64,000 nucleotides of DNA from Bacilli bacterium (GCA_050948865.1 JBMNEQ010000004.1:62477-126476); one strand, 5' to 3'; counted from the stretch's first letter, positions 7,461 through 64,000 are shown. Numbers and translations are program-made. The notes: generated by a model not told the origin, from the sequence alone.

Positions 7461-7555
7461 CTTTTCACCTCCATCGTGATATATCAATTTTAACAAAAGT
7501 CTCTTTAAAAAGCAATATTTTTTCTTAATATGTTTAAAATAAGAAGGGTGATTAA

Positions 7556-15946: not shown

Positions 15947-15984
15947 TAAAGACTTTAAGATAATATATATTTTATAAATCGTTG

Positions 15985-16190
15985 ATGAAGGATAGTATTA
16001 AAATGGTTATTTTAAGAGAACTAGTGGTTGGTGAAAACTAGGAATAATGTTTTAAGAATCAACTTCGGAGTGAAACGAGGAATTAAGTATTCGTTTTCGG
16101 TTTAACCGTTATTTAAAAAAAGAGATTAGAGTGTAATTAGGATGGCACCACGGCATTTCGTTCCTAGGGAAGAGAAATGTCTTTTTTTAT
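15985..16190 (+). promoter_or_regulatory. T-box riboswitch leader controlling serS
   Basis: AGAGA box, F-box CCGTTA (16106-16111), T-box AATTAGGATGGCACCACGG (16134-16152), and a terminator hairpin plus T-run (16153-16190) competing with the antiterminator. Confidence 0.75.
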
Positions 16191-16205: not shown

Positions 16206-17471
16206 ATGTTAGATATTAAAAGAATTGTGGAGAACAAAGAAGAAGTAAGAAAAGCTTTATTAAAAAGGGGGTTAGAAGTAGATTTTGATCTTTTAATTAA
16301 TTTATATAATGATCGACGTCAAATATTAGTCGAAGTAGAAGAATTAAAAAGTATTAAAAATAAATTAACCAAAGAAGTGGGAATTTTAAAAAGAAAGAAA
16401 GAATCAGCTGATCATTTAATTAAAGAAATGACTAATAATAATGAAAAGATTGATGATTTGGAAAAGAAACAAAAGGATCTAGCAATAAAGATCAATGATT
16501 TTTTAATTGAACTTCCTAATACTCCTGATGATGATGTAGTTAGTGGGGGAAAAGAATTTAACGAAGTCATAAGAACTTATAAAGAAAAACCAGAGTTTAC
16601 TTTTGAGTCTAAGGATCATGTCACTTTAATTAATCAATTGGGTTTAGTTGATTTTGAAAGAGGAACAAAATTAGGAGGCTTTGGTTATTGGATTTATAAA
16701 GGAATAGGGGCTAGATTAGAATGGGCTTTAATAAATTATTTTATTGATTTTCATTTAAAAAATGGTTATGAGTTTTTACTTCCTCCTCATATTTTAAATG
16801 AAGAATGTGGATATACTGCAGGTCAATTTCCTAAATTTAAAGATGATGTTTTTAAAGTTCTAGATGGGGGATTTTTATTACCAACCGCTGAAACAGCAAT
16901 AATTAATTATCATCGAGATGAAATATTAAATATTAATGATTTACCTAAAAAATACTTTTCTTATACTCCTTGTTATCGTAAAGAAGCGGGAAGTCATCGG
17001 GCTGAAGAAAGAGGAACTGTAAGAGGGCATCAATTTAATAAAGTGGAAATGTTTGTTTATACAACTAAAGAAGATTCAGAGAAAATGTTAGAAGAATTAG
17101 TACTAAATGCTGAAAAATTAGTCCAAGGGTTAAATTTACATTATCAAGTTAGTAAATTAGCAGCTGAAGATGTCAGTGCGGGAATGGCTAAAACTTATGA
17201 TGTAGAAATATGGATTCCTAGTATGAAAGAATATAAAGAGGTGTCTAGTGTTTCTAATGCTCGTGATTATCAAACAAGAAGGGGAATGATTAGATATAAG
17301 ACTAAAGAGGGAAAAATTGAATATGCTCACGCTTTAAATGGTTCAGGTTTAGCGACATCACGTTTATTACCAGCTTTAATAGAACAAAATCAAAATGAAG
17401 ATGGAAGTATAACTATTCCTGAAGTTTTAAGACCATATTTAGGAGGAATAAGTAAAATAACGGTTAGTTAA
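16206..17471 (+). CDS. serS: seryl-tRNA synthetase
   Basis: N-terminal coiled-coil arm and class II aaRS motifs (FRKEAGSHRAEERGTVRGHQF...), preceded by a T-box leader. Confidence 0.95.
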   Translation: MLDIKRIVENKEEVRKALLKRGLEVDFDLLINLYNDRRQILVEVEELKSIKNKLTKEVGILKRKKESADHLIKEMTNNNEKIDDLEKKQKDLAIKINDFLIELPNTPDDDVVSGGKEFNEVIRTYKEKPEFTFESKDHVTLINQLGLVDFERGTKLGGFGYWIYKGIGARLEWALINYFIDFHLKNGYEFLLPPHILNEECGYTAGQFPKFKDDVFKVLDGGFLLPTAETAIINYHRDEILNINDLPKKYFSYTPCYRKEAGSHRAEERGTVRGHQFNKVEMFVYTTKEDSEKMLEELVLNAEKLVQGLNLHYQVSKLAAEDVSAGMAKTYDVEIWIPSMKEYKEVSSVSNARDYQTRRGMIRYKTKEGKIEYAHALNGSGLATSRLLPALIEQNQNEDGSITIPEVLRPYLGGISKITVS

Positions 17472-45551: not shown

Positions 45552-46061
45552 ATGAAAATTACAAAAACTTTTTTAGAATACTTTATCTTAATTTTAATAG
45601 TAGTTTTTATTCGTGCTTTTATTATTACTCCTGTTCAAGTCAATGGAGATTCTATGAAGGAGACAATTCATCATAATGATATTTTGCTTTTAAATAAATT
45701 AAATTCTCATCCCAAGAAGTTAAAACGTTTTGATATTATTGTTTTTAATTATTATAATGAAGCTTTAATTAAAAGAGTTATTGGTTTACCTGGAGAATCT
45801 ATTGAATATAAAGATAATAAATTATTGGTTGATGGAAAACAGATTAAAGAACCACTTTCCTTTGGAAAAATTAGTAATTTTAGTTTGCGTTATATTGGAT
45901 CTGGATATGAAAAGGTTCCAGAAGGAATGTATTTTGTTTTAGGGGATAATCGAAATAATTCAACTGATAGTAGAACTATTGGTTTTGTTTCTAAAAAAGA
46001 TATTCAAGGTAAAGTGAATTTTATTTTATTTCCTTTTAAGCGGTTTGGTTATGTAAAGTAA
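45552..46061 (+). CDS. lepB: signal peptidase I
   Basis: Ser/Lys dyad motifs (GDSMKETI; KRVIGLPGE) and the GDNRNNSTDSR box. Confidence 0.9.
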   Translation: MKITKTFLEYFILILIVVFIRAFIITPVQVNGDSMKETIHHNDILLLNKLNSHPKKLKRFDIIVFNYYNEALIKRVIGLPGESIEYKDNKLLVDGKQIKEPLSFGKISNFSLRYIGSGYEKVPEGMYFVLGDNRNNSTDSRTIGFVSKKDIQGKVNFILFPFKRFGYVK

Positions 46062-55470: not shown

Positions 55471-55503
55471 TTTTTTTATGTTAAAATTAAAGTGGTGATA
55501 AAT

Positions 55504-56433
55504 ATGGAAGAGTTTTTAAAAAAGTTTTTAAATTATTTAACTTATCAAAAAAGATATTCTAAACATACAGTTTTTAATTATGAAAAGGATATTGAATTAT
55601 TTCATGAATTTTTAAAAAGAAAAACTTTAACATATCACACTTTAACTTATCAAAATATAAGAGAGTTTTTAATGGAACTATATGATAAAGATTATGCTAG
55701 AAGTAGTGTTTCTAGAAAGATAAGTTCTTTACGTAGTTATTTTAAGTATTTAGTTTTAGAAGATGTTTTAGAAGAAAATATTTTTAAATTAGTTTCTTTA
55801 CCAAAAAAAGAAAAGAAAATACCTAAATTTATTTATCATCATGATTTAATGCCTTTATTTGAAGTTCCTGATCTTTTAACACCTTTAGGACAAAGAAATC
55901 GTTTAATCTTAGAAATACTTTATGGAACAGGAATAAGAGTTCAAGAATTAGTAGATATTAAAATAGAAGATATTGATCAATCAAATAAATTAATTAGAAT
56001 ATTAGGAAAAGGTAATAAAGAAAGAATGGTTGTTTATGGAGAATATAGTGAAGAAATATTAAATTTATATTTACAAGAAGGACGTTTTAAATTACTAGGT
56101 AATAATTATAGTGATTATTTATTTTTAAACAATCAAGGTAACAAAATATCTCCTAGGGGTGTTAGATATATATTAAACAAATTAATAAAAGAAACTAGTT
56201 TAAAAATAAATATTTCTCCCCATGTTTTACGTCATACATTCGCTACTCATATGTTAGAAAATGGGGCTGATTTAATTACTGTTCAAGAATTACTAGGACA
56301 TGTTAGTTTATCAACAACAGGAAAATATATGCATGTTACTAATGAAAGATTAAGAGAAGTCTATTTACACCATCATCCAAGAGCTAGAGAGAATATCGTT
56401 GAATTAAAAAGTAAGTTCCCGTTTGAATGCTAA
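55504..56433 (+). CDS. tyrosine recombinase, XerC/XerD family
   Basis: N-terminal SAM-like core-binding domain, and catalytic HVLRHTFATHMLENGADL...LGHVSLSTTGKYMHV with RHR/Y residues. GGTGA RBS before ATG 55504. Confidence 0.85.
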   Translation: MEEFLKKFLNYLTYQKRYSKHTVFNYEKDIELFHEFLKRKTLTYHTLTYQNIREFLMELYDKDYARSSVSRKISSLRSYFKYLVLEDVLEENIFKLVSLPKKEKKIPKFIYHHDLMPLFEVPDLLTPLGQRNRLILEILYGTGIRVQELVDIKIEDIDQSNKLIRILGKGNKERMVVYGEYSEEILNLYLQEGRFKLLGNNYSDYLFLNNQGNKISPRGVRYILNKLIKETSLKINISPHVLRHTFATHMLENGADLITVQELLGHVSLSTTGKYMHVTNERLREVYLHHHPRARENIVELKSKFPFEC

Positions 56434-56689
56434 AATATAATTTCGTTACAAAGTTCTCGTTTGTGGGAGTTTTTTTAGTGTTTAAAATCTAAAAAGATGG
56501 TCTTTTTTTCAATATTATGATACTATATATTCGATGTTATAAATTTATAGCAGCTAAAAAAGGATACGTACTTGGTCATTTTAAGACTTAGTTCCCGTAT
56601 CGGAATAATAAAAAAGAATTGTTGTTGGCTATTATTTGCCAACCAATCATTTAAAGTTATAGTAGATTTTTAAGTGATTGGTTGACAAT

Positions 56690-57960
56690 CATTTGTAAGC
56701 AAAATGATCATCAATGAAAACTTTATTTAATTTTATAATCACTTAGATTAAATGTTACATTATCAGGTTTTATGTAAGAGCAATTTAATTTTTTTATAAA
56801 ATTCGGATAAAGTTTTTTAGTTAATTCATATGGTGTCTTATTATCTAAACTTACTCTTGGAGTATTGTTTATGTTATTCTCAAGAAACTTCACTGTTTCA
56901 TCAGTCAAATTTTCAAAAGATGTTCCTTTAGTAAAAACCTTTCTGATGTAATAGTGATTTTTTTCTATTTCTGCTTTTTGATTTGATTGATAAGGATCAC
57001 AATAAAACACATTACATATTTTTTTATTGTTTTTATAATCTCTTTCCATCATATCAGGATTGAAAAATTCTCCTCCATTGTCGGTCAAAATAATCCGTAA
57101 AACTTGAGCGTATAACTTAATACCAAGTGTGTCTTTTAAAAATACAAATTTATCATCTACTGATGCTATATTATTTTTATCTAATAAAAAAATCAACATA
57201 AACTTAGTTTTAATAATTAAAAGCGTTAATAATACTTTTGAATTACCTTGTTTTCCAATAACAGTATCCATTTGGGCAACGTTCATTCTAGGATGTATAG
57301 TTGTGAAAAGCAGATAATCGTTATAAGTTCTATTTTTTAGAATAGCTAATTCACGTCTATTTCTACGTTGATTTAATTTCCTTTTTTTGTATTTTACTTT
57401 TTTAGGTAAATCTAAATTTGTTAAAGACAAAGCGTTAATATCAATGTACTTATAAAAAGTTGTTTTGCTCATGCAAAGAATGTCTTTGTGGTTTGCAAAT
57501 ACTTGGTTAACACTTTGTTTTTTATCTTTTATAAGTGGAACTATTATTTCTTCTATTTCTTCAATCTCTTGAGGAGTGATATCAATGCCTTCTCTTGTTG
57601 TACGAAGTTTAAGTTTATATAAATCGTATGCTATCTTAGCGTTATAGTAAAGCTTTTTTTTAGAGCATCCTCCTTTGGCTGAACAATTATTACAAACATA
57701 TGGAACTTTATTGAGTTTAGGACAATTTGATGTGTTTTCATTGTTGTTTGAATATTTAGAGTATCTATTTCTTTTTACTTCTTTAGCAATAGTGGTGCGA
57801 TCCTTTTCAATTGTTTTTCCAATATCAGTAAATGTAACGTTTTTTCTTATTAAAATTTCTATAACATCTCTTTGTTCTTTAGTAAGATGATTGTAACTTG
57901 ATTTTGCCATTTTGACACTTCCTTTCATTAATGGCAAATAAACCAACATAGAATATAATA
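56690..57960 (-). mobile_element. IS30-family insertion sequence (boundaries approximate)
   Basis: Single transposase ORF fills the element. Its flanks are intergenic and contain inverted GC-bearing motifs (ccaaccaatca/tgattggttg). The terminal inverted repeats could not be delimited by eye. Confidence 0.45.
56723..57910 (-). CDS. IS30-family transposase (HTH plus DDE)
   Basis: N-terminal HLTKEQRDVIEILIRKNVTFTDIGKTIEKDRTTIAKEVKRNRY matches the IS30 HTH signature, and a DDE region lies downstream. GGAAGTG RBS before ATG 57910. Confidence 0.85.
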   Translation of the reverse strand: MAKSSYNHLTKEQRDVIEILIRKNVTFTDIGKTIEKDRTTIAKEVKRNRYSKYSNNNENTSNCPKLNKVPYVCNNCSAKGGCSKKKLYYNAKIAYDLYKLKLRTTREGIDITPQEIEEIEEIIVPLIKDKKQSVNQVFANHKDILCMSKTTFYKYIDINALSLTNLDLPKKVKYKKRKLNQRRNRRELAILKNRTYNDYLLFTTIHPRMNVAQMDTVIGKQGNSKVLLTLLIIKTKFMLIFLLDKNNIASVDDKFVFLKDTLGIKLYAQVLRIILTDNGGEFFNPDMMERDYKNNKKICNVFYCDPYQSNQKAEIEKNHYYIRKVFTKGTSFENLTDETVKFLENNINNTPRVSLDNKTPYELTKKLYPNFIKKLNCSYIKPDNVTFNLSDYKIK

Positions 57961-58512
57961 TAACTAATTAATAAATATAGCAAAGTAAAATTCATTTCTA
58001 ATAATTGATGAACTAAGTTTGATGGTTAAAATCCCTAAATTATTAAGTGATATGAATTTGCTCGTTTCTTGTTTGTTATATATAATGAATTAGGAATTTA
58101 AAAAATAGGTTCTTAATAAAAACAGTTCTATTACAGATGATATTACTGATAAAGATTGGATTTAAGTCAAGTATTTAGACGCTTTTTTATAAACGTTTTA
58201 ATTTATATTTAAATTTATTCCAATTTCCTTTATGATTTTAGGAACCCAATTCGTGTTAATTTTGTCGTGGAAAGCGTATAGACGCTTTCGCTTTTACGAC
58301 TAACACGAATTGCCTAAAATAATAAAGTTTTCTCGGCATAAATACAAAAAAATTCCTTAAAAGGAATCCAAAAAATTATTTCAACAACTAAGTTCCCATA
58401 TGGTAGTTGGGCGGGAACTTACCTTTTTATTTAACAGCTAGAGAGAATATTATTGACATAACTAAAGATAGTGATAAAATATAATTATAATTAAAAAAGA
58501 AAAAGGTGAATC

Positions 58513-59034
58513 ATGATTGATTTTATAGAATTTTTAAAAGATATATTTGGTTATGCTATTATAATTGCTTTAATTATTTTAATTAGAATATTTGTTTTAG
58601 TTCCTATTGAGGTAGTAGGAACTTCTATGGAACCAAATTTAAAAAATGGGGATATAATATTAATGGATAAAGTAGCATATAATTATTTTAAATTAAAACG
58701 TTTTGATGTTATAGTATCTGAATATGATAGCCCTAAACATATAGTTAAAAGAATAATAGGTTTACCAGGAGATAAAATTAGATATATAGATAATAAATTA
58801 TATATTAATGAAAAAGAAGTAGAAGAAAAATTTAATAAATATGGAGTAATAGAAGATTATTCTTTAAAAGAATTAGATTATGAAAAAATACCAGAAGATA
58901 TGTATTTTGTAATAGGGGATAATAGAGAAGATTCTGTTGATAGTCGTAGTTTTGGTTTAATCCATAAAGAAGAAATAGAAGGAAAACCTTTTCTTGTTAT
59001 ATGGCCCTTAAATCATTTTAAGTTAGTAAAATAA
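58513..59034 (+). CDS. signal peptidase I, second copy
   Basis: GTSMEPNL, KRIIGLPGD and GDNREDSVDSR boxes. 173 aa. Confidence 0.85.
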   Translation: MIDFIEFLKDIFGYAIIIALIILIRIFVLVPIEVVGTSMEPNLKNGDIILMDKVAYNYFKLKRFDVIVSEYDSPKHIVKRIIGLPGDKIRYIDNKLYINEKEVEEKFNKYGVIEDYSLKELDYEKIPEDMYFVIGDNREDSVDSRSFGLIHKEEIEGKPFLVIWPLNHFKLVK

Positions 59035-59284
59035 TAAAAGACTTTTATTGTTTCCCAACAATTGCCAAAAAATAATTTTTGTGCTATTATATTTTTAAGT
59101 TTAGACATTTATTATTTAATTTGGCAAACTTTTTGAAAGAAAAGGACGCAAAGTTGGGAATCTAAGGTATTAGTGATGGTAATTGAATACTATGATCGTC
59201 CAACTGCAACTAGCGAATATTGCAGTTTTTTGTTTGAATAATAAGTGTTGAACGGGCTAAATATATTAATGGGAGGAAATATTT

Positions 59285-62200
59285 ATGCTAAACAGAAAAT
59301 TTATTGTAGCTTTTGCAGTTACAGTACTCGTTTTCTTGGGAATCTATACGTTTGCGTTAAACCCGCCAGCAGATGAACCTAAGGACGATGAAACAGGTGT
59401 TAAGGAGGAGCAAAAGACACCGAAAGAAGAGAATATAGAAGGGGAAAATATAGAGGAAGGGGAAGAGGCTGAAGAAGAATTTGAAGAAGGAACAGGAAGT
59501 GGTTTACAATTTACTCCTGGAAGAATTATACCTACTACAAGTTCTGTAACTAATTTACCAGAAAAGGTAGAGGAAGATACTGAAGAACCAGTGGTAGAGG
59601 AAGAAGTTATTCCATTATCAATTTCAGGAGTAGAAGAAGGGGCATATTATAATGATGAGCAACAGTTAGAAATAAAAGGAACAAACATAATTAGTGTTAA
59701 ACGTAATGGGGAATCAGTTGGATTTACAGGTGGTAATTATTCTTTTAGTGAAGAAGCTGAATATGAAATAGTTGTTACTGATAATGATAATAATACTATT
59801 TCAGTGAATTTTGTGATTGATACTACTGTTCCAAGTATAAGTGGAATTGAAGAAAATACACATACGAATAATGAAGTAGAAATAACAATTGAGGATAAAA
59901 ATTTAGAATCAGTTTTAGTTAACGATGAAATAATTGAATTAGATGAAAATAATAAATTTGTTCTTAGTGAAGAAAATGAATATGTTGTTATCGTTACTGA
60001 TAAAGCGAATAATCAAACTAAAGTTGAATTCGTTATTGATAAAACAGCTCCTGAGGTAAAACTTAATGGAGATAAAAAAATATATTTAGAATTCAATCAA
60101 GATTATTATGATGATAAAGGTGCTACTGCAACAGATACTTTTACTGCAACAGAAGAATTAATATTTAGAAATTTAATTGAATATGTTGAAGTAATAGATG
60201 GTAATAAAAACTTCGTTAAAGTTTCAGAAATTGATAATACAAAAATTGGAAGATATAAAGTTTGGTATTATTTTAAAGATAAAGCTGGTAATGAAGGTAA
60301 TGCCATAAGAAATGTTTATGTAGAAGATACTACTTCACCTATTATTGAATTAATAGGGGATTCAGAAATAATTATGAATCCATCAATTTTCTATTTTGAT
60401 CAAGGAGCCACAGCTACTGATAATTATGATGGAGATTTAACAAAGAAAATTAAAAAAACAGGTTTTGTTAATCCATTAATTCCAGGAAAATATACGATTA
60501 CTTATAATGTTACTGATAGTAATGGAAATGAAGCTGAACCTGTATCAAGAACCGTGATTGTTAAAGATACAATTAAACCAACAGTATTATTATTACCATA
60601 TGGTAATAATAAAGCAGCTAAAACTCATAGTACTTGGGTAATTGTTTTAGATAATCACCGTGTTGATAATGATAGTTTAAAATATATATGGACTGATTCA
60701 ACAGAAGCGCCAACTAAAGAAGAATTTAGTAATGAATTTAGAAATTTTAATGTAATTAAAAGTCCATCTGATTTAAATGGAACCTATTATTTATGGATTT
60801 ATGCTAAAGATGTTAGTGGCAATGAAACAATAGTTAGTAGTAAAGCTTTTAATTTTGATAATGAAGGCCCAAGTGTAGAGGTAAATTATAGTATTACTGA
60901 AGAAACTAATGAAAATGTAGTAGTAACTATTAGTGCAAATGAAAAGATGCAAAAAGTAGATGGTTGGACATTATCAAATGATAAAAAAGAATTAAAGAAA
61001 GATTATAAAACAAATGTTTCTAATGAACGTGTTGTCTTAAAAGATTTGTTAGGAAATAGTACAGAAGTTTTTATAAGTATAACTAATATAGATAAAGGAA
61101 AACCTGATTTTAAAATTTCAAGGAATATTCCTTTTGATCAACCAACTAATCAAGATGTTACTCTAACTTTTGCTATTGCTTATGATAATTCTGGCGGTTT
61201 TGGTCTTCATGATGAACCTTATTCATTTGATGGGGGAAAGACATGGACTAATGACTCTTCTAAAACCTTTTCAAAAAACCAAAGTGTTAATGTAATGTTA
61301 AGAGATAAAGTTGGTAATACCTGTTCAGGAAGTATTAAAATTACCAATATTGATAAGGAAACTCCTGTTGTAACTTATAATGATAAAGAACAAAGAACAG
61401 TCAAAGAAACAATTACAATAAACCCAGATGGGGAATATGATGTGGAAGGAAACAATCCTTTTCTAGTAACAGATAATAGTCAAGAAGGTTATTTAGAACC
61501 TTATGAAATAAAAATTAGATATGCTCCAGAATGGGATGGGCAAAATGGAACATATAATGGTAAAAAAGTAGATAAAGTTGATTTGGGATTACTAGGAGTA
61601 TATAGAATTGATTATAAATATAAAGATGAAGCAGGTAATAAAACTTATGGTGCTGTTTGGATTTATGTAGTTGTTGGTGAAAAACAAGTTTATAATGAAA
61701 CAAAACAAATTCTTTATGATGTTATACAAGAAGCAATAAATGAAGCAGATGAAGGAAATACGATTTTAGTAGGACCTGGAGAATATGATGTAGCATATAT
61801 TAAAGAATCTAAAAAACATTATTTATTGATTGAAAAACCAATAATTATTAAAGCTGCTGAAATGGATAATAAACCTATTTTAGTTGGAGATTATAATCAA
61901 ATTCAAGCTCAAGGAAGCCATCAACAGGCAACCATAGAAATTTATAATACTGATAATGTTACTTTAGATGGTTTAGTTATACATAGTATAGAAAACTATC
62001 CTTCGACCTTTACTAAAGCATTAGAAATAACAAATTCAAATAATACTCTTATAAATAATTGTACTATTTACGATGAAGGTAGGACCGCTATTTATATTGC
62101 TGGAAATGAAGTAGGAAAATATACAATTTCAAATAATAACCTTGATGGTTCTATTGTTGTAGCTAATGGTGCTGGTGATGGAGAAGGGGCTAATGAAGCC

Positions 62201-63415
62201 ATTATTAAAAATAATGTTATAAATGGAAGTATTTCTTTTACAGGAAAAACCAATTCAGGTTGGGATCCTTTATCTATTAACGAATATCCAAATATAAAAA
62301 ATAATGTTATTAATGGAACAAATGAAGGAATGTTATTGAATAGTCGTGATAGTGATGAAGGTAATTTAATTAGTAATGATCTTTTAAATATGATTATCGA
62401 AAATAATGAGTTCCCTAGTGGAGAAATAGGTATAATGAAGGATAGTTATGAATGTTATGATGCAGAATTACATAGAAAAAGACTTATTTTAAATCCTTTG
62501 ATTATTAATACTACAACTAGTTTTTCTTATTTAACTCTTCAAAATGCAATTAATGATGCTAACGAAGGAGATACTATTAAATTATTTGATCATCTTCAAC
62601 TTAGTTCGACAATAAATATTTCTAATCTTAATTTTACACTAGATTTGAATGGTCATAGTTTGACAACTCCAGATGCTGAGGGTTCGGCTGCCCAAACGGT
62701 GTTTAAAATTGTTGGGGAGTCTAATGTTACGATACAAGGTAAAGGTTTGATTCAATCAGGGACCACTACTAGTTATGAAGGGTTTGTTAATATGACTCCA
62801 ACAATCCATATAAATGATGCAAATTCTAGTCTTACAATAGATAATGCAACTATTAAAGGTGGAGATTCCATTAATTCACGAGATACAGCACCGGCCCTTT
62901 GGGGTCAAAACTTTAAGGAAATTAACATTATTGATGCAACTATACTCGGGGGAGACCACATTAAGAAAAAAGATGTAGGTATTGGATATAACAATTATGC
63001 TACTGCAGGTTATGCGATTGATTTAAATGTAGCAAGTGGCAAAACTGTAAATATCATTAGAAGTACCATTAGTGGTGGTAATGGAATAAACGGTGGATAT
63101 AATACTTTTGAACAAGGTGAAGGATATAAGCAAGCTTCTGGTGGGCAAGCATTTTCTATGAATCAAACAAACGAAATAAATATTACAAATTCCACTATTA
63201 GGGGCGGTCACAGTGATTTACATCATGGAGGTCATGCTATTGTACGAGGCGTGGGGAAATTTGATATAAAAGCCTCTAGTTTAGTTGGTGGAAATGGTAA
63301 TAAAGAAAATGGATATTCGGCAGGAAAAGGAGTATCTGGCTATGATTCTGGAAGTGGTAGTTACACTATTGATGAAAACTCTACTATAACTGATGGAGGT
63401 TCAAGTAATTCATAA
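59285..63415 (+). CDS. large exported surface protein: N-terminal signal-anchor, acidic linker, about 6 DUF5011/Ig-like repeats, parallel beta-helix (pectate-lyase-like) repeats, Gly-rich C-terminus
   Basis: N-terminal hydrophobic segment. Repeated ...DQGATATDNYDGDLT...TYNVTDSNGNEAEP..RTVIVKDTIKP modules (DUF5011-like). NNCTIYD.../ISNNNLDGS PbH1-type repeats. No LPXTG or SLH motif seen. Confidence 0.8.
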   Translation: MLNRKFIVAFAVTVLVFLGIYTFALNPPADEPKDDETGVKEEQKTPKEENIEGENIEEGEEAEEEFEEGTGSGLQFTPGRIIPTTSSVTNLPEKVEEDTEEPVVEEEVIPLSISGVEEGAYYNDEQQLEIKGTNIISVKRNGESVGFTGGNYSFSEEAEYEIVVTDNDNNTISVNFVIDTTVPSISGIEENTHTNNEVEITIEDKNLESVLVNDEIIELDENNKFVLSEENEYVVIVTDKANNQTKVEFVIDKTAPEVKLNGDKKIYLEFNQDYYDDKGATATDTFTATEELIFRNLIEYVEVIDGNKNFVKVSEIDNTKIGRYKVWYYFKDKAGNEGNAIRNVYVEDTTSPIIELIGDSEIIMNPSIFYFDQGATATDNYDGDLTKKIKKTGFVNPLIPGKYTITYNVTDSNGNEAEPVSRTVIVKDTIKPTVLLLPYGNNKAAKTHSTWVIVLDNHRVDNDSLKYIWTDSTEAPTKEEFSNEFRNFNVIKSPSDLNGTYYLWIYAKDVSGNETIVSSKAFNFDNEGPSVEVNYSITEETNENVVVTISANEKMQKVDGWTLSNDKKELKKDYKTNVSNERVVLKDLLGNSTEVFISITNIDKGKPDFKISRNIPFDQPTNQDVTLTFAIAYDNSGGFGLHDEPYSFDGGKTWTNDSSKTFSKNQSVNVMLRDKVGNTCSGSIKITNIDKETPVVTYNDKEQRTVKETITINPDGEYDVEGNNPFLVTDNSQEGYLEPYEIKIRYAPEWDGQNGTYNGKKVDKVDLGLLGVYRIDYKYKDEAGNKTYGAVWIYVVVGEKQVYNETKQILYDVIQEAINEADEGNTILVGPGEYDVAYIKESKKHYLLIEKPIIIKAAEMDNKPILVGDYNQIQAQGSHQQATIEIYNTDNVTLDGLVIHSIENYPSTFTKALEITNSNNTLINNCTIYDEGRTAIYIAGNEVGKYTISNNNLDGSIVVANGAGDGEGANEAIIKNNVINGSISFTGKTNSGWDPLSINEYPNIKNNVINGTNEGMLLNSRDSDEGNLISNDLLNMIIENNEFPSGEIGIMKDSYECYDAELHRKRLILNPLIINTTTSFSYLTLQNAINDANEGDTIKLFDHLQLSSTINISNLNFTLDLNGHSLTTPDAEGSAAQTVFKIVGESNVTIQGKGLIQSGTTTSYEGFVNMTPTIHINDANSSLTIDNATIKGGDSINSRDTAPALWGQNFKEINIIDATILGGDHIKKKDVGIGYNNYATAGYAIDLNVASGKTVNIIRSTISGGNGINGGYNTFEQGEGYKQASGGQAFSMNQTNEINITNSTIRGGHSDLHHGGHAIVRGVGKFDIKASSLVGGNGNKENGYSAGKGVSGYDSGSGSYTIDENSTITDGGSSNS

Positions 63416-63710
63416 GAATTAGAATAAACATAGGATACAGGGACATATTTACTGTCTTATAACGCAGTAATCTAAAACAAACTGGGTGGTTCAAAGTGAA
63501 TCATCCAGTTTTCTTTTTTATCCCATGGAAAAGCGAGCAATTAAGTTCCCTTCTGTGAAGTGTTTTTTTAACAAAAACAATCTTATCTGAATAAAAGATT
63601 ATCTATATTGATAACAAATTATAAAAGAGCATCTGCTCTTTTTTTCTTGTGAATAATGTTATATTATGCTAAAATTAAGTTGTAAGTAAGATAGTAAGGG
63701 AGTGAATGTA

Positions 63711-64000
63711 ATGGCATTTTTAAAGTTTAGACCGTTAACATCAAGATTTAATTTTAGGAAAACTTTGAAAGAAGAAGAATTAAATGAGGAGTTTAAAAGT
63801 TATTTACTTGATGGTGAAGAGATAATGATGTCTTTTTCTTCTGGTCGGGATGTGGGTATTTTTACTGATAAAAGAATTCTATTAATTGATATTAAGGGAT
63901 TAAGGGGTTTAAGAAGAAGTATTTTTACTCTTCGTTATGAATCTATTTCGGCTTATGAATTAAATGTTCGTTCTTTTGATAGTGCGATTAATATTACTAG
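63711..64000 (+). CDS. bacterial PH-domain (bPH)-like protein, 5' part; runs off the window end
   Basis: AAGGGAG RBS and ATG 63711. GRDVGIFTDKRILLIDIKG pattern resembles bPH/YdbS-like domains. Confidence 0.45.
   Translation, partial: MAFLKFRPLTSRFNFRKTLKEEELNEEFKSYLLDGEEIMMSFSSGRDVGIFTDKRILLIDIKGLRGLRRSIFTLRYESISAYELNVRSFDSAINIT

What the first reader, a model, noticed from the sequence alone, without database searches (positions are those of the whole stretch)
58513..63415. Dedicated signal peptidase paired with a giant exported Ig-like/beta-helix protein
A second SipS-type peptidase is encoded directly upstream of, and co-oriented with, a 1376-aa protein carrying an N-terminal signal-anchor, an acidic linker, six or more DUF5011/Ig-like repeats and pectate-lyase-like beta-helix repeats. 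This is reminiscent of cognate peptidase-substrate pairs such as sipW-tasA. The protein lacks LPXTG or SLH anchoring signals, so release or anchoring may depend on this peptidase. It could be an adhesin, an S-layer-like component or a polysaccharide-active enzyme.
Basis: partly seen in the sequence, partly recalled or inferred. Interest (0 to 1): 0.5.

Follow-up and report, generated by a model that had tools for sequence, protein, structure and literature searches.

The report
Riboswitch-gated giant surface protein with partner peptidase
In an uncultured low-GC Bacilli bacterium, the gene for a very large secreted surface protein has its own promoter and a c-di-GMP-sensing RNA switch, and in every related lineage examined it sits just downstream of an extra signal peptidase gene; this is a new variant of known adhesin-control systems, not a new kind of biology.

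Summary
Both ORFs are real. One is a bacterial-type signal peptidase I paralog (58513-59034). The other is a 1376-aa exported protein (59285-63415) with a signal peptide, an acidic linker, about 8 Ig-like beta-sandwich modules and two C-terminal right-handed beta-helix modules.

The 250-nt spacer holds a promoter-like site, a c-di-GMP-I riboswitch (RF01051, 67 bits against a threshold of 35) and an intrinsic terminator. The terminator's 5' arm shares 4 nt with the aptamer's last helix. The giant gene is therefore its own, second-messenger-gated transcription unit, and I predict an ON switch.

The peptidase/substrate idea still gains support. In 5 of 5 lineages, with peptidases about 50% identical and three different upstream contexts, the peptidase paralog lies 184-250 nt upstream of a large Ig-like protein. 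These proteins share a conserved signal peptide, MLN[RK][KR]...F[LF]GI..FA|[QL], while their mature parts vary from 931 to 1771 aa. The riboswitch is present in 3 of the 5 and looks decayed in the other 2.

The peptidase is not SipW-type. Only 2-3 of the Ig modules are DUF5011 by Pfam. The beta-helix is shown as a fold, not as an enzyme.

Verdict: new variant of known kinds (Bc2-cap, sipW-tasA), of moderate interest.

The parts
58453..58480 (+). Promoter-like site of the peptidase gene (TTGACA-16-TG-TAAAAT, 11 of 12 matches). It lies about 20 nt outside the right end of the IS30 element.
   Evidence: IS boundary
58513..59034 (+). Signal peptidase I paralog (173 aa, bacterial P-type S26). It has an N-terminal membrane anchor, the SMEPN serine box, the KRIIGLPGD lysine box and GDNREDSVDSR.
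   Evidence: It is 41% identical to the housekeeping copy. The catalytic boxes are kept in the orthologs of L030, L036 and L034.
59062..59090 (+). Promoter-like site of the giant gene (TTGCCA-17-TG-TATTAT, extended -10). The predicted transcription start is about 59097.
   Evidence: Equivalent sites lie just after the peptidase stop in L030, L036 and L034. The region aligns across 5 lineages.
59099..59122 (+). 5' strand of a long-range helix that closes the whole leader. It pairs with 59232-59250.
   Evidence: duplex -17.1 kcal/mol; 1 of 1000 shuffles as stable
59113..59211 (+). c-di-GMP-I (GEMM-I) riboswitch aptamer. It has a P1 hairpin with a GAAA tetraloop and a P2 hairpin. G59123 is at the position equivalent to Vc2 G20.
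   Evidence: RF01051, 67.1 bits against a gathering score of 35, E=5.7e-11. Orthologous aptamers are in L028 (68.1 bits) and L030 (52.1 bits). 93.9% of cells are paired.
59202..59231 (+). Intrinsic terminator of the expression platform: AACUGCAA / UUGCAGUU followed by a U-run. Its 5' arm shares 59202-59205 with the P2 3' strand.
   Evidence: -7.9 kcal/mol; pair probability about 0.85 without ligand. It is conserved with 2 compensatory pairs. The scan calls the equivalent terminators in L028 and L030.
59232..59250 (+). 3' strand of the leader-closing helix, located just after the terminator U-run.
59271..59276 (+). Ribosome-binding site GGGAGG, 8 nt before the ATG.
   Evidence: read from the sequence; aligned across 5 lineages
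59285..63415 (+). Giant exported protein gene (1376 aa).
   Evidence: The identical protein P0001 is in the public collection.
59285..59356 (+). Family-specific signal peptide MLNRKFIVAFAVTVLVFLGIYTFA. The type I cleavage site TFA|LN is inferred.
   Evidence: the only hydrophobic segment. It is conserved in L028, L030, L036, L034, P0023, P0052, P0073 and P0109. The cleavage site is inferred from the -3/-1 rule.
59363..59605 (+). Acidic low-complexity linker (aa ~27-107).
   Evidence: Similar linkers are in L034 and L036.
59606..61669 (+). Array of about 8 Ig-like beta-sandwich modules (aa ~108-795). Two are significant DUF5011/PF16403 (aa ~257-347 and 353-426).
61682..62509 (+). Beta-helix module A (aa ~800-1075).
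62510..63412 (+). Beta-helix module B (aa ~1076-1376), Gly/Asn-rich coils. There is no C-terminal anchor.
63479..63521 (+). Intrinsic terminator ending the giant gene's transcription unit (15-bp stem plus T-run).
45552..46061 (+). Housekeeping signal peptidase I (169 aa) after rplS, listed for comparison.

Best explanation
This is a three-part cell-surface module conserved in a clade of uncultured low-GC Bacilli.

(1) The giant gene is its own transcription unit. A sigma-A-type promoter about 30 nt after the peptidase stop starts a leader of about 190 nt. The leader contains a c-di-GMP-I aptamer and an intrinsic terminator.

(2) The terminator's 5' arm reuses the last 3-4 nt of the aptamer's P2 helix plus the junction bases. 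Without ligand, the terminator forms and transcription stops before the ORF. With c-di-GMP bound, P2 and the junction are locked, and the terminator loses the base pairs next to its U-run. RNA polymerase then reads into the 4.1-kb ORF. This makes it an ON switch (inferred).

(3) The product is exported through Sec using a family-specific signal peptide. It displays a stalk of Ig-like modules tipped by two beta-helix modules. I infer that it acts as an adhesin or matrix protein of the high-c-di-GMP, sessile state.

(4) The adjacent P-type signal peptidase I paralog is expressed from its own promoter. It is the partner enzyme that removes this signal peptide (inferred from conserved linkage). 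Its activity would decide maturation and release from the membrane, because the protein has no other recognisable anchor.

Shown: gene structures, aptamer identity, the terminator overlap, the folds, and the conserved synteny and signal peptide.
Inferred: direction of the switch, the ligand in vivo, the cleavage site, peptidase specificity and adhesive function.
For: Riboswitch and terminator:
- The aptamer scores 67.1 bits against a gathering score of 35. It recurs upstream of the orthologous giant genes in L028 (68.1 bits) and L030 (52.1 bits).
- The terminator shares 59202-59205 with P2. Without ligand the terminator pairs have probability about 0.85 and the P2 base about 0.15. The aptamer-enforced fold is only 1.1 kcal/mol worse, so ligand binding can tip the balance.
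- The same overlap occurs in all three lineages, with different stem sequences. 92.6% of cells are paired against 22-52% when the partner is slid, and 2 pairs change on both sides.
- A class I ON switch in front of an adhesin has a precedent in Bc2-cap (PMC4933901).

Own promoter:
- Promoter-like sites with an extended -10 lie at the same place in 4 of 5 lineages.

Peptidase linkage:
- In 5 of 5 lineages the S26 paralog lies 184-250 nt upstream of a 931-1771-aa Ig-like protein. Upstream contexts are xerC, Peptidase_M23, or Germane plus a tRNA.
- The homologs are closer to this paralog than to the housekeeping copy.
- The catalytic Ser and Lys boxes are kept.
- The signal peptide is conserved while the mature parts vary.
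- Nine more distant S26 loci lack such a neighbour within 300 nt.

Folds and relatives:
- Structure models and fold searches.
- Relatives of the beta-helix modules carry CWB2, SLH, choline-binding or Big_2 domains, so they are surface proteins.
Against: - Nothing is experimental.
- In C. difficile all functional class I c-di-GMP riboswitches are OFF switches, and the review warns against extrapolating direction between species (PMC6366702).
- In the window, an alternative weaker hairpin (about -4.6 kcal/mol) next to the U-run can still form with the aptamer intact.
- ViennaRNA does not recover the consensus aptamer fold for L028 and L030 on its own.
- With 3 sequences, covariation is not statistically significant.
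- No GGDEF, EAL or HD-GYP gene is visible in this 64-kb window, so c-di-GMP synthesis by the organism is unverified.
- The riboswitch has decayed in 2 of 5 lineages although the peptidase pairing persists.
- The predicted cleavage site ([ST]FA|) is ordinary, so the housekeeping peptidase could cut it.
- The separate promoter means the two genes are not obligatorily co-expressed.
- The five lineages are related, so part of the synteny may simply be inherited.
- The closest beta-helix relatives have no peptidase or riboswitch nearby.
Confidence: 0.6

Rival explanations
1. The adjacency is inherited gene order with no functional meaning. The second S26 is a general-purpose secondary signal peptidase, as in many Firmicutes with several Sip paralogs. 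The giant protein is processed by whichever peptidase is available. Only the riboswitch control is specific to the giant gene.
For: - The giant gene has its own promoter, and a terminator lies between the genes.
- The cleavage site is an ordinary [ST]-F-A site (sequence).
- Window, L028 and L030 also share the downstream bPH_1 gene, which points to plain synteny.
- Relatives of the beta-helix part lack any nearby S26.
Against: - The pairing persists in lineages with three unrelated upstream contexts, at about 50% peptidase identity.
- It was found in 3 of 3 loci chosen blind to their neighbours.
- The signal peptide is the most conserved part of otherwise shuffled proteins.
- The spacing stays at 184-250 nt.
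Confidence: 0.3
2. The riboswitch is an OFF switch. c-di-GMP binding favours termination, so the giant protein belongs to the low-c-di-GMP, planktonic state. It could then be a released polysaccharide-degrading or dispersal factor.
For: - All seven functional class I riboswitches of C. difficile are OFF switches (PMC6366702).
- An alternative hairpin abutting the U-run is compatible with the folded aptamer in the window.
- The beta-helix fold matches many lyases and depolymerases.
Against: - The main terminator arm overlaps P2 and the junction in all three lineages. That is the ON architecture, and no separate anti-terminator segment is available.
- In L028 and L030, sequestering the shared bases leaves only 4-6 AU-rich pairs detached from the U-run (sequence).
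- Bc2-cap is a class I ON precedent.
Confidence: 0.22
3. The giant protein is mainly an enzyme, namely a secreted polysaccharide lyase, epimerase or depolymerase. In this reading the Ig-like modules are spacers or carbohydrate-binding units, and the protein is not an adhesin.
For: - Some relatives carry Pel9A-like, DUF1565, Pectate_lyase_5, CHB_HEX_C or Fn3_assoc hits.
- One relative lies next to a phage-like DNA polymerase ORF.
Against: - No catalytic family model reaches threshold on this protein.
- Orthologs at the same locus lack the beta-helix modules altogether, so the conserved core of the family is the Ig-like array.
Confidence: 0.25
4. The protein is an S-layer-like structural coat component.
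For: Foldseek matches of the Ig-like array include the S-layer proteins EA1, SbsB and Sap. The protein is large and carries no covalent anchor.
Against: - There is no SLH or other wall-binding domain.
- S-layer genes are normally expressed constitutively at very high level, not behind a second-messenger-gated terminator.
- Domain composition varies greatly between lineages.
Confidence: 0.07

Closest known systems
Bc2 c-di-GMP-I riboswitch upstream of cap/cbpA (collagen adhesion protein) in Bacillus thuringiensis and the B. cereus group (PMC4933901, PMC7423583)
   Same: A class I c-di-GMP aptamer sits in the 5' leader of a large surface adhesin gene in a Firmicute. Control is by a terminator, and ligand binding gives read-through (ON).
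   Different: - Cap is an LPXTG, sortase-anchored collagen-binding protein. The protein here has no anchor motif and has an Ig-like plus beta-helix architecture.
- No partner peptidase is described for Cap.
- The ON direction here is predicted, not measured.
tapA-sipW-tasA operon of Bacillus subtilis and sipW-tasA/calY of B. cereus (PMC4292775, PMC10151520)
   Same: An extra signal peptidase is encoded next to the secreted biofilm-matrix protein(s) it processes.
   Different: - SipW is an ER/archaeal-type peptidase. The peptidase here is bacterial P-type: TIGR02227 159 bits, SipW model 20 bits against a cutoff of 190.
- sipW and tasA are co-transcribed. Here the substrate gene has its own promoter and a riboswitch-controlled terminator.
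- TasA is a small fibre subunit, not a 1376-aa modular protein.
Clostridioides difficile CD2831/CD3246 adhesins and the ZmpI (PPEP-1) protease under opposing c-di-GMP riboswitches (PMC6366702)
   Same: A protease gene lies next to a c-di-GMP-riboswitch-controlled surface adhesin gene. The protease governs whether the adhesin stays on the cell.
   Different: - There the adhesins use class II ON riboswitches and sortase anchoring. The protease is a secreted Zn metalloprotease that cuts near the C-terminal anchor, and it is itself under a class I OFF riboswitch.
- Here the neighbour is a membrane signal peptidase with no riboswitch of its own, and the site is N-terminal.
SipA/LepA signal-peptidase-like proteins in streptococcal pilus islands (PMC4049620)
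   Same: An S26-family gene is embedded in a surface-appendage locus and dedicated to that locus's exported proteins.
   Different: SipA lacks the catalytic residues and acts as a chaperone. The paralog here keeps the Ser and Lys boxes. No sortase or pilin genes are present.
Beta-helix adhesins: PfbA (S. pneumoniae), the SRRP binding region (L. reuteri), and the autotransporter passengers pertactin, Vag8 and UpaB
   Different: Sequence identity is only 9-17%, so this is a fold-level resemblance. Anchoring and secretion routes differ (LPXTG or type V).

Membership tests
c-di-GMP-I (GEMM-I) riboswitch, Rfam RF01051 | Covariance-model score above the curated gathering threshold | tested here: met
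   67.1 bits against 35, E=5.7e-11, full-length match 1-87 of 87. Orthologous copies score 68.1 and 52.1 bits.
c-di-GMP-I (GEMM-I) riboswitch, Rfam RF01051 | Two hairpins, the first capped by a GNRA tetraloop, with the conserved GGCAAAC...GACGCAAAG core. G at the Vc2 G20-equivalent position and C after P2 for ligand recognition. | tested here: met
   The alignment to the model shows the GAAA loop, the conserved core, G59123 and C59207. 93.9% of cells are paired across 3 lineages. The mapping of G20/C92 rests on PMC6140456 plus inference.
c-di-GMP-I (GEMM-I) riboswitch, Rfam RF01051 | Binds c-di-GMP and changes expression of the downstream gene | not testable with these tools
   Only the architecture is available: a terminator that overlaps the aptamer's 3' end.
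Bacterial (P-type) signal peptidase I, MEROPS S26A / TIGR02227 | Family model above cutoff; catalytic Ser (SMxP) and Lys (KRxxGxPGD) boxes; box E GDNxxxSxDSR; N-terminal membrane anchor | tested here: met
   TIGR02227 159.4 bits against 47. PF10502 E=1e-44. GTSMEPN, KRIIGLPGD and GDNREDSVDSR are readable in the translation, as is the hydrophobic stretch at aa 14-31.
SipW-type (ER/archaeal-type) signal peptidase | Match to the SipW equivalog model, with a Ser-His rather than a Ser-Lys dyad | tested here: not met
   NF046067 scores 20.2 bits against a cutoff of 190. The Lys box is present.
Cognate peptidase-substrate operon (the tapA-sipW-tasA pattern) | Peptidase and substrate are co-transcribed from one promoter with no terminator between them | tested here: not met
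   A promoter-like site (59062-59090) and a riboswitch terminator (59202-59231) lie between the genes. No strong terminator directly follows the peptidase gene, so read-through into the leader remains possible.
Cognate peptidase-substrate pair (functional sense) | Conserved genetic linkage of the peptidase paralog with one class of substrate across lineages | tested here: met
   5 of 5 lineages and 3 upstream contexts. The signal peptide is conserved. Distant S26 loci serve as a negative control.
Cognate peptidase-substrate pair (functional sense) | The substrate is cleaved specifically by the paralog | not testable with these tools
   This needs heterologous processing assays.
   The protein is a member (88.3 bits against 27), but only 2 stretches are significant and 1 is sub-threshold. 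About 8 Ig-like modules appear only at the fold level, and the last two are low-confidence.
Pectate lyase / Beta_helix Pfam families (PF13229, PF12708 and others) | Sequence-model match and catalytic residues | tested here: not met
Sortase (LPXTG), SLH, CWB2 or choline-binding anchored surface proteins | C-terminal sorting signal or a wall-binding repeat domain | tested here: not met
   The regex search found no LPXTG-like motif or C-terminal hydrophobic segment. No anchoring-domain hits were found. The relatives of the beta-helix modules do carry such domains.

The most novel reading that the evidence does not exclude
The S26 paralog and the family-specific signal peptide form a private maturation channel that gives two-input control of a giant adhesin. 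c-di-GMP, through the riboswitch, decides whether the protein is made. The dedicated peptidase decides whether it stays tethered to the membrane by its uncleaved signal-anchor, with the acidic linker spanning the wall, or is released into the matrix. This would be a signal-peptidase-based counterpart of the C. difficile PPEP-1/CD2831 anchor-or-release logic. The variable mature part (Ig-like array with or without beta-helix tips) would be swapped behind a fixed cassette of peptidase, promoter, riboswitch and signal peptide.
Probability: 0.15. Interest if true: 0.65.

Novelty: new variant of a known kind. Interest (0 to 1): 0.45.

Why it matters
c-di-GMP riboswitches in front of adhesins are known, and so are dedicated signal peptidases for matrix proteins. 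They have not been described together as one conserved module, and not with a P-type peptidase.

If the linkage is functional, it gives a compact, testable example of how a poorly known, uncultured Bacilli clade switches on and matures its largest surface protein. The organisms are about 25% GC and are labelled 'Bacilli' or 'Mollicutes bacterium' in MAG records.

The conserved signal peptide next to a conserved peptidase paralog is a natural system for studying how signal peptidase I chooses its substrates.

It is also a practical annotation lesson. The 250-nt 'spacer' between two co-oriented genes held the key regulatory element.

Tried and rejected
- Genome search with the whole giant protein: 292 pattern matches but no relative in the 185,579 species-representative genomes.
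- Genome search with the peptidase: only 33-41%-identical S26 genes (Erysipelotrichales, Secundilactobacillus), too distant for orthology. I used them as a negative control.
The module B alignment found a single 2.2-kb contig.
- Contexts of nine beta-helix relatives (P0127, P0220, P0130, P0223, P0128, L021): no S26 and no riboswitch. The beta-helix part therefore does not carry the association.
- BLASTP self-comparison of the giant protein: no internal repeats at E<1e-3, so the Ig-like modules are too diverged for sequence-repeat detection.
- Permissive Rfam scans of the L036 and L034 leaders: no c-di-GMP-I or -II match at E<=10. Their folding z-scores are not significant (-0.16 and -0.43).
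- Unconstrained MFE folding of the L028 and L030 leaders did not reproduce the consensus aptamer, so for those two the switch logic rests on sequence overlap.
- Motif search for GGDEF, EAL, HD-GYP and PilZ in all window ORFs: nothing convincing.
- A regex count of catalytic boxes over 119 S26 homologs was too strict to be informative.
- SipW membership and operon structure were considered and rejected.
Full report
WHAT IS THERE

The window is about 25% GC with nearly all genes on the + strand. Exact-sequence look-ups place it on a 787,845-bp contig of a MAG annotated only as 'Bacilli bacterium'. The region of the finding recurs at >=99.9% identity in nine independent assemblies, so it is real sequence.

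THE PEPTIDASE

It is a bacterial-type signal peptidase I. PF10502 gives E=1e-44. TIGR02227 scores 159 bits against a cutoff of 47. The SMEPN, KRIIGLPGD and GDNREDSVDSR boxes are intact.

It is a second copy. A 41%-identical paralog at 45552..46061 follows rplS, which is the classical housekeeping position.

It is not SipW-type: the SipW model scores 20 bits against a cutoff of 190.

THE GIANT PROTEIN

- The only hydrophobic segment is at aa 1-28.
- Residues 27-115 are strongly acidic (29 D/E, 6 K/R).
- There is no LPXTG-like motif, no C-terminal hydrophobic tail, and no SLH, CWB2 or choline-binding domain.
- Pfam sees only two significant DUF5011/PF16403 stretches and one sub-threshold stretch.
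- An AlphaFold model of aa 100-800 has mean pLDDT 79. It is high up to about aa 600 and low for the last two modules. It is all-beta with about eight sandwich modules, and it matches multi-Ig proteins.
- No beta-helix or pectate-lyase sequence model hits, even at E<=10.
- The region consists of two modules, A (aa ~800-1075) and B (aa ~1076-1376), which occur separately in relatives.
- The family is rare: 94 hits among 1.84 billion representative proteins. Its members carry CWB2, SLH, choline-binding or Big_2 domains, so they are surface proteins.

The 250-nt spacer is a complete regulatory leader.
- A promoter-like site with an extended -10 lies at 59062-59090.
- It is followed by a c-di-GMP-I riboswitch aptamer at 59113-59211 (RF01051, 67.1 bits against a gathering score of 35, E=5.7e-11, full-length).
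- Next comes a hairpin plus U-run at 59202-59231 (-7.9 kcal/mol).

The terminator's 5' arm (AACUGCAA, 59202-59209) shares 59202-59205 with the 3' strand of the aptamer's P2 helix. In the ligand-free ensemble the terminator pairs have probability about 0.85 and the P2 base about 0.15. Enforcing the aptamer costs only 1.1 kcal/mol. A tightly binding ligand can therefore flip the structure. It would remove exactly the base pairs that abut the U-run. This is the architecture of an ON switch.

RELATED LOCI

The beta-helix half led nowhere. Nine loci of its relatives have neither an S26 gene nor a riboswitch.

The Ig-like half and the peptidase were informative.
- L028 encodes P0020 (1771 aa), which is 36% identical to aa 113-694 of the giant protein. 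This locus shows the 3' end of an S26-like gene, a c-di-GMP-I aptamer (68.1 bits), an overlapping terminator, the giant gene, and then a bPH_1 gene as in the window.
- I then looked up three peptidase homologs (50-53% identical). They are closer to this paralog than to the housekeeping copy.
- All three have a large Ig-like secreted protein 184-241 nt downstream.
  - L030: xerC, S26, riboswitch (52.1 bits), a 1035-aa protein, bPH_1, PPDK.
  - L035-37: Peptidase_M23, S26, a 931-aa protein.
  - L032-34: Germane, a tRNA, S26, a giant protein with an acidic linker.

- That makes 5 of 5 lineages and three upstream contexts.
- All peptidase orthologs keep the catalytic boxes.
- All giant proteins start with MLN[RK][KR]x(13-14)F[LF]GI[FYL][STA]FA|[QL]. 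Between 11 and 16 of the first 25 residues are identical, while the mature proteins range from 931 to 1771 aa. Only the window's protein has beta-helix modules. Four more database proteins carry the same signal peptide.
- Nine distant S26 loci used as a control show no such neighbour within 300 nt.

THE LEADERS COMPARED

The five leaders align at the promoter, at a UUUUGGCAA segment, at the terminator's 3' arm and at the RBS. The scan calls promoter-like sites with an extended -10 at the same place in four of them.

In the three riboswitch-bearing leaders, the aptamer is 93.9% paired. The terminator is 92.6% paired against 22-52% in slid controls, with two pairs changed on both sides. Columns 96-99 belong to both structures. 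Three sequences are too few for statistical significance.

L036 and L034 have lost the aptamer core: there is no hit at E<=10. They look like decayed riboswitches.

MOST LIKELY MECHANISM

The giant gene is transcribed from its own promoter. At low c-di-GMP the leader terminates at about 59231. At high c-di-GMP the aptamer holds P2 and the junction, the terminator fails, and the 4.1-kb ORF is transcribed.

The product is exported by Sec, and its signal peptide is removed at TFA24|L25. This site is inferred from the -3/-1 rule and from its conservation as [ST]FA|.

The neighbouring peptidase paralog has its own promoter (58453-58480). It is the partner enzyme, inferred from linkage and signal-peptide conservation.

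The mature protein has an acidic stalk, an Ig-like array and beta-helix tips, and no recognisable anchor. I infer that it acts as an adhesin or matrix protein of the sessile state.

My estimates: riboswitch identity about 0.9, ON direction about 0.7, functional peptidase link about 0.55.

The main caveats are these. All functional class I riboswitches of C. difficile are OFF switches (PMC6366702). An alternative weaker hairpin exists in the window. No c-di-GMP enzymes are seen in this window. The cleavage site is ordinary.

COMPARISON WITH KNOWN SYSTEMS

- Closest for the RNA: Bc2-cap of B. thuringiensis, a class I ON switch before an adhesin (PMC4933901).
- Closest for the peptidase idea: tapA-sipW-tasA. 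That system uses a different peptidase type and is an operon.
- Closest for the protease-next-to-riboswitch-controlled-adhesin layout: C. difficile ZmpI/CD2831. It uses a different protease, a different cleavage site and a different riboswitch class.
- SipA of streptococcal pilus islands is catalytically dead, unlike this paralog (PMC4049620).

VERDICT

The combination of a P-type peptidase paralog, a cyclic-dinucleotide riboswitch and a giant variable surface protein with a fixed signal peptide is a new variant of known kinds. Interest is moderate (0.45).

Noticed in passing
window 56402-58431: An IS30-family element lies immediately upstream of the peptidase promoter. Its transposase is at 56723..57949 (-) and scores 86.9 bits on NF033563 against a cutoff of 80. 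20-nt inverted repeats lie at 56402-56421 and 58412-58431. Contig L006 joins the same element to a different left flank, and several short contigs break at 58407-58475. The element is therefore probably multi-copy or mobile. It also overlaps the 3' end of the xerC-like ORF (55492..56433).
   Followed up: partly
window 59099-59122 with 59232-59250; also L030 and L036 leaders: A long-range helix pairs the predicted 5' end of the leader with the segment just after the terminator U-run, enclosing the aptamer and terminator. Duplex energies are -17.1 kcal/mol in the window (1 of 1000 shuffles as stable), -14.7 in L030 (8 of 1000) and -12.2 in L036 (30 of 1000). It is not significant in L028. The sequences differ but the position is the same. 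It cannot influence termination. It may be a 5'-terminal stem that stabilises read-through mRNA, or an RNase III site.
   Followed up: partly
L028 136-223: The orthologous riboswitch has A instead of G at the position equivalent to Vc2 G20 (CUUA|GCAAAC, against UUUG|GCAAAC in the window). The G20A change makes Vc2 bind both c-di-GMP and 3'3'-cGAMP, and natural cGAMP riboswitches have A there (PMC6140456). This copy may therefore sense a different or additional dinucleotide.
   Followed up: partly
L036 2691-2907 and L034 6364-6550: Two lineages keep the peptidase/giant-gene pair but have leaders that look like decayed riboswitches. The promoter, a UUUUGGCAA segment, the RBS and (in L036) the terminator's 3' arm still align. 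The aptamer core is gone and no Rfam family matches. Both share the motif AUAUCA[AG]UU[UG]G[AG]GGUUUUGGCAA.
   Followed up: partly
window 63711-64000 (runs off the end); L028 5731-6129; L030 10936-11745: A small bPH_1 (bacterial PH domain, 132 aa) gene follows the giant gene in three lineages and is duplicated in L030. In the window it has its own promoter-like site (63647-63675) and is separated from the giant gene by two hairpins. I did not determine whether it belongs to the module.
   Followed up: no
L022 1-528; L023 3483-5081: Some relatives of beta-helix module B lie in mobile-looking contexts. One is next to a family-A DNA-polymerase-like ORF (possibly phage). Another is next to an IS66 transposase. 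This hints that these beta-helix modules also circulate as phage or mobile-element depolymerase-like or receptor-binding parts.
   Followed up: no
L030 ~7533-7552: A perfect 9-bp inverted repeat, CTGTGATAA-AA-TTATCACAG, overlaps the -10 region of the giant gene's promoter-like site in this lineage only. It could be an operator for a dimeric regulator.
   Followed up: no
window 58245-58313 and 58391-58432: The right-hand 480 bp of the IS element contains a long imperfect palindrome (AATTCGTGTTA...TAACACGAATT) and a hairpin, AAGTTCCC...GGGAACTT, followed by a T-run. The function is unknown; they could be an IS end structure or a terminator.
   Followed up: no
window 15973-16168: T-box leader (RF00230, 117 bits against a gathering score of 93) upstream of the ORF at 16206..17471.
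   Followed up: no
L017 6001-12584 (Secundilactobacillus odoratitofui): In this distant control locus, an S26 gene is followed about 500 nt downstream by an 1828-aa ORF whose N-terminus resembles a KxYKxGKxW-type signal peptide. Peptidase-next-to-giant-surface-protein arrangements may therefore occur independently elsewhere.
   Followed up: no
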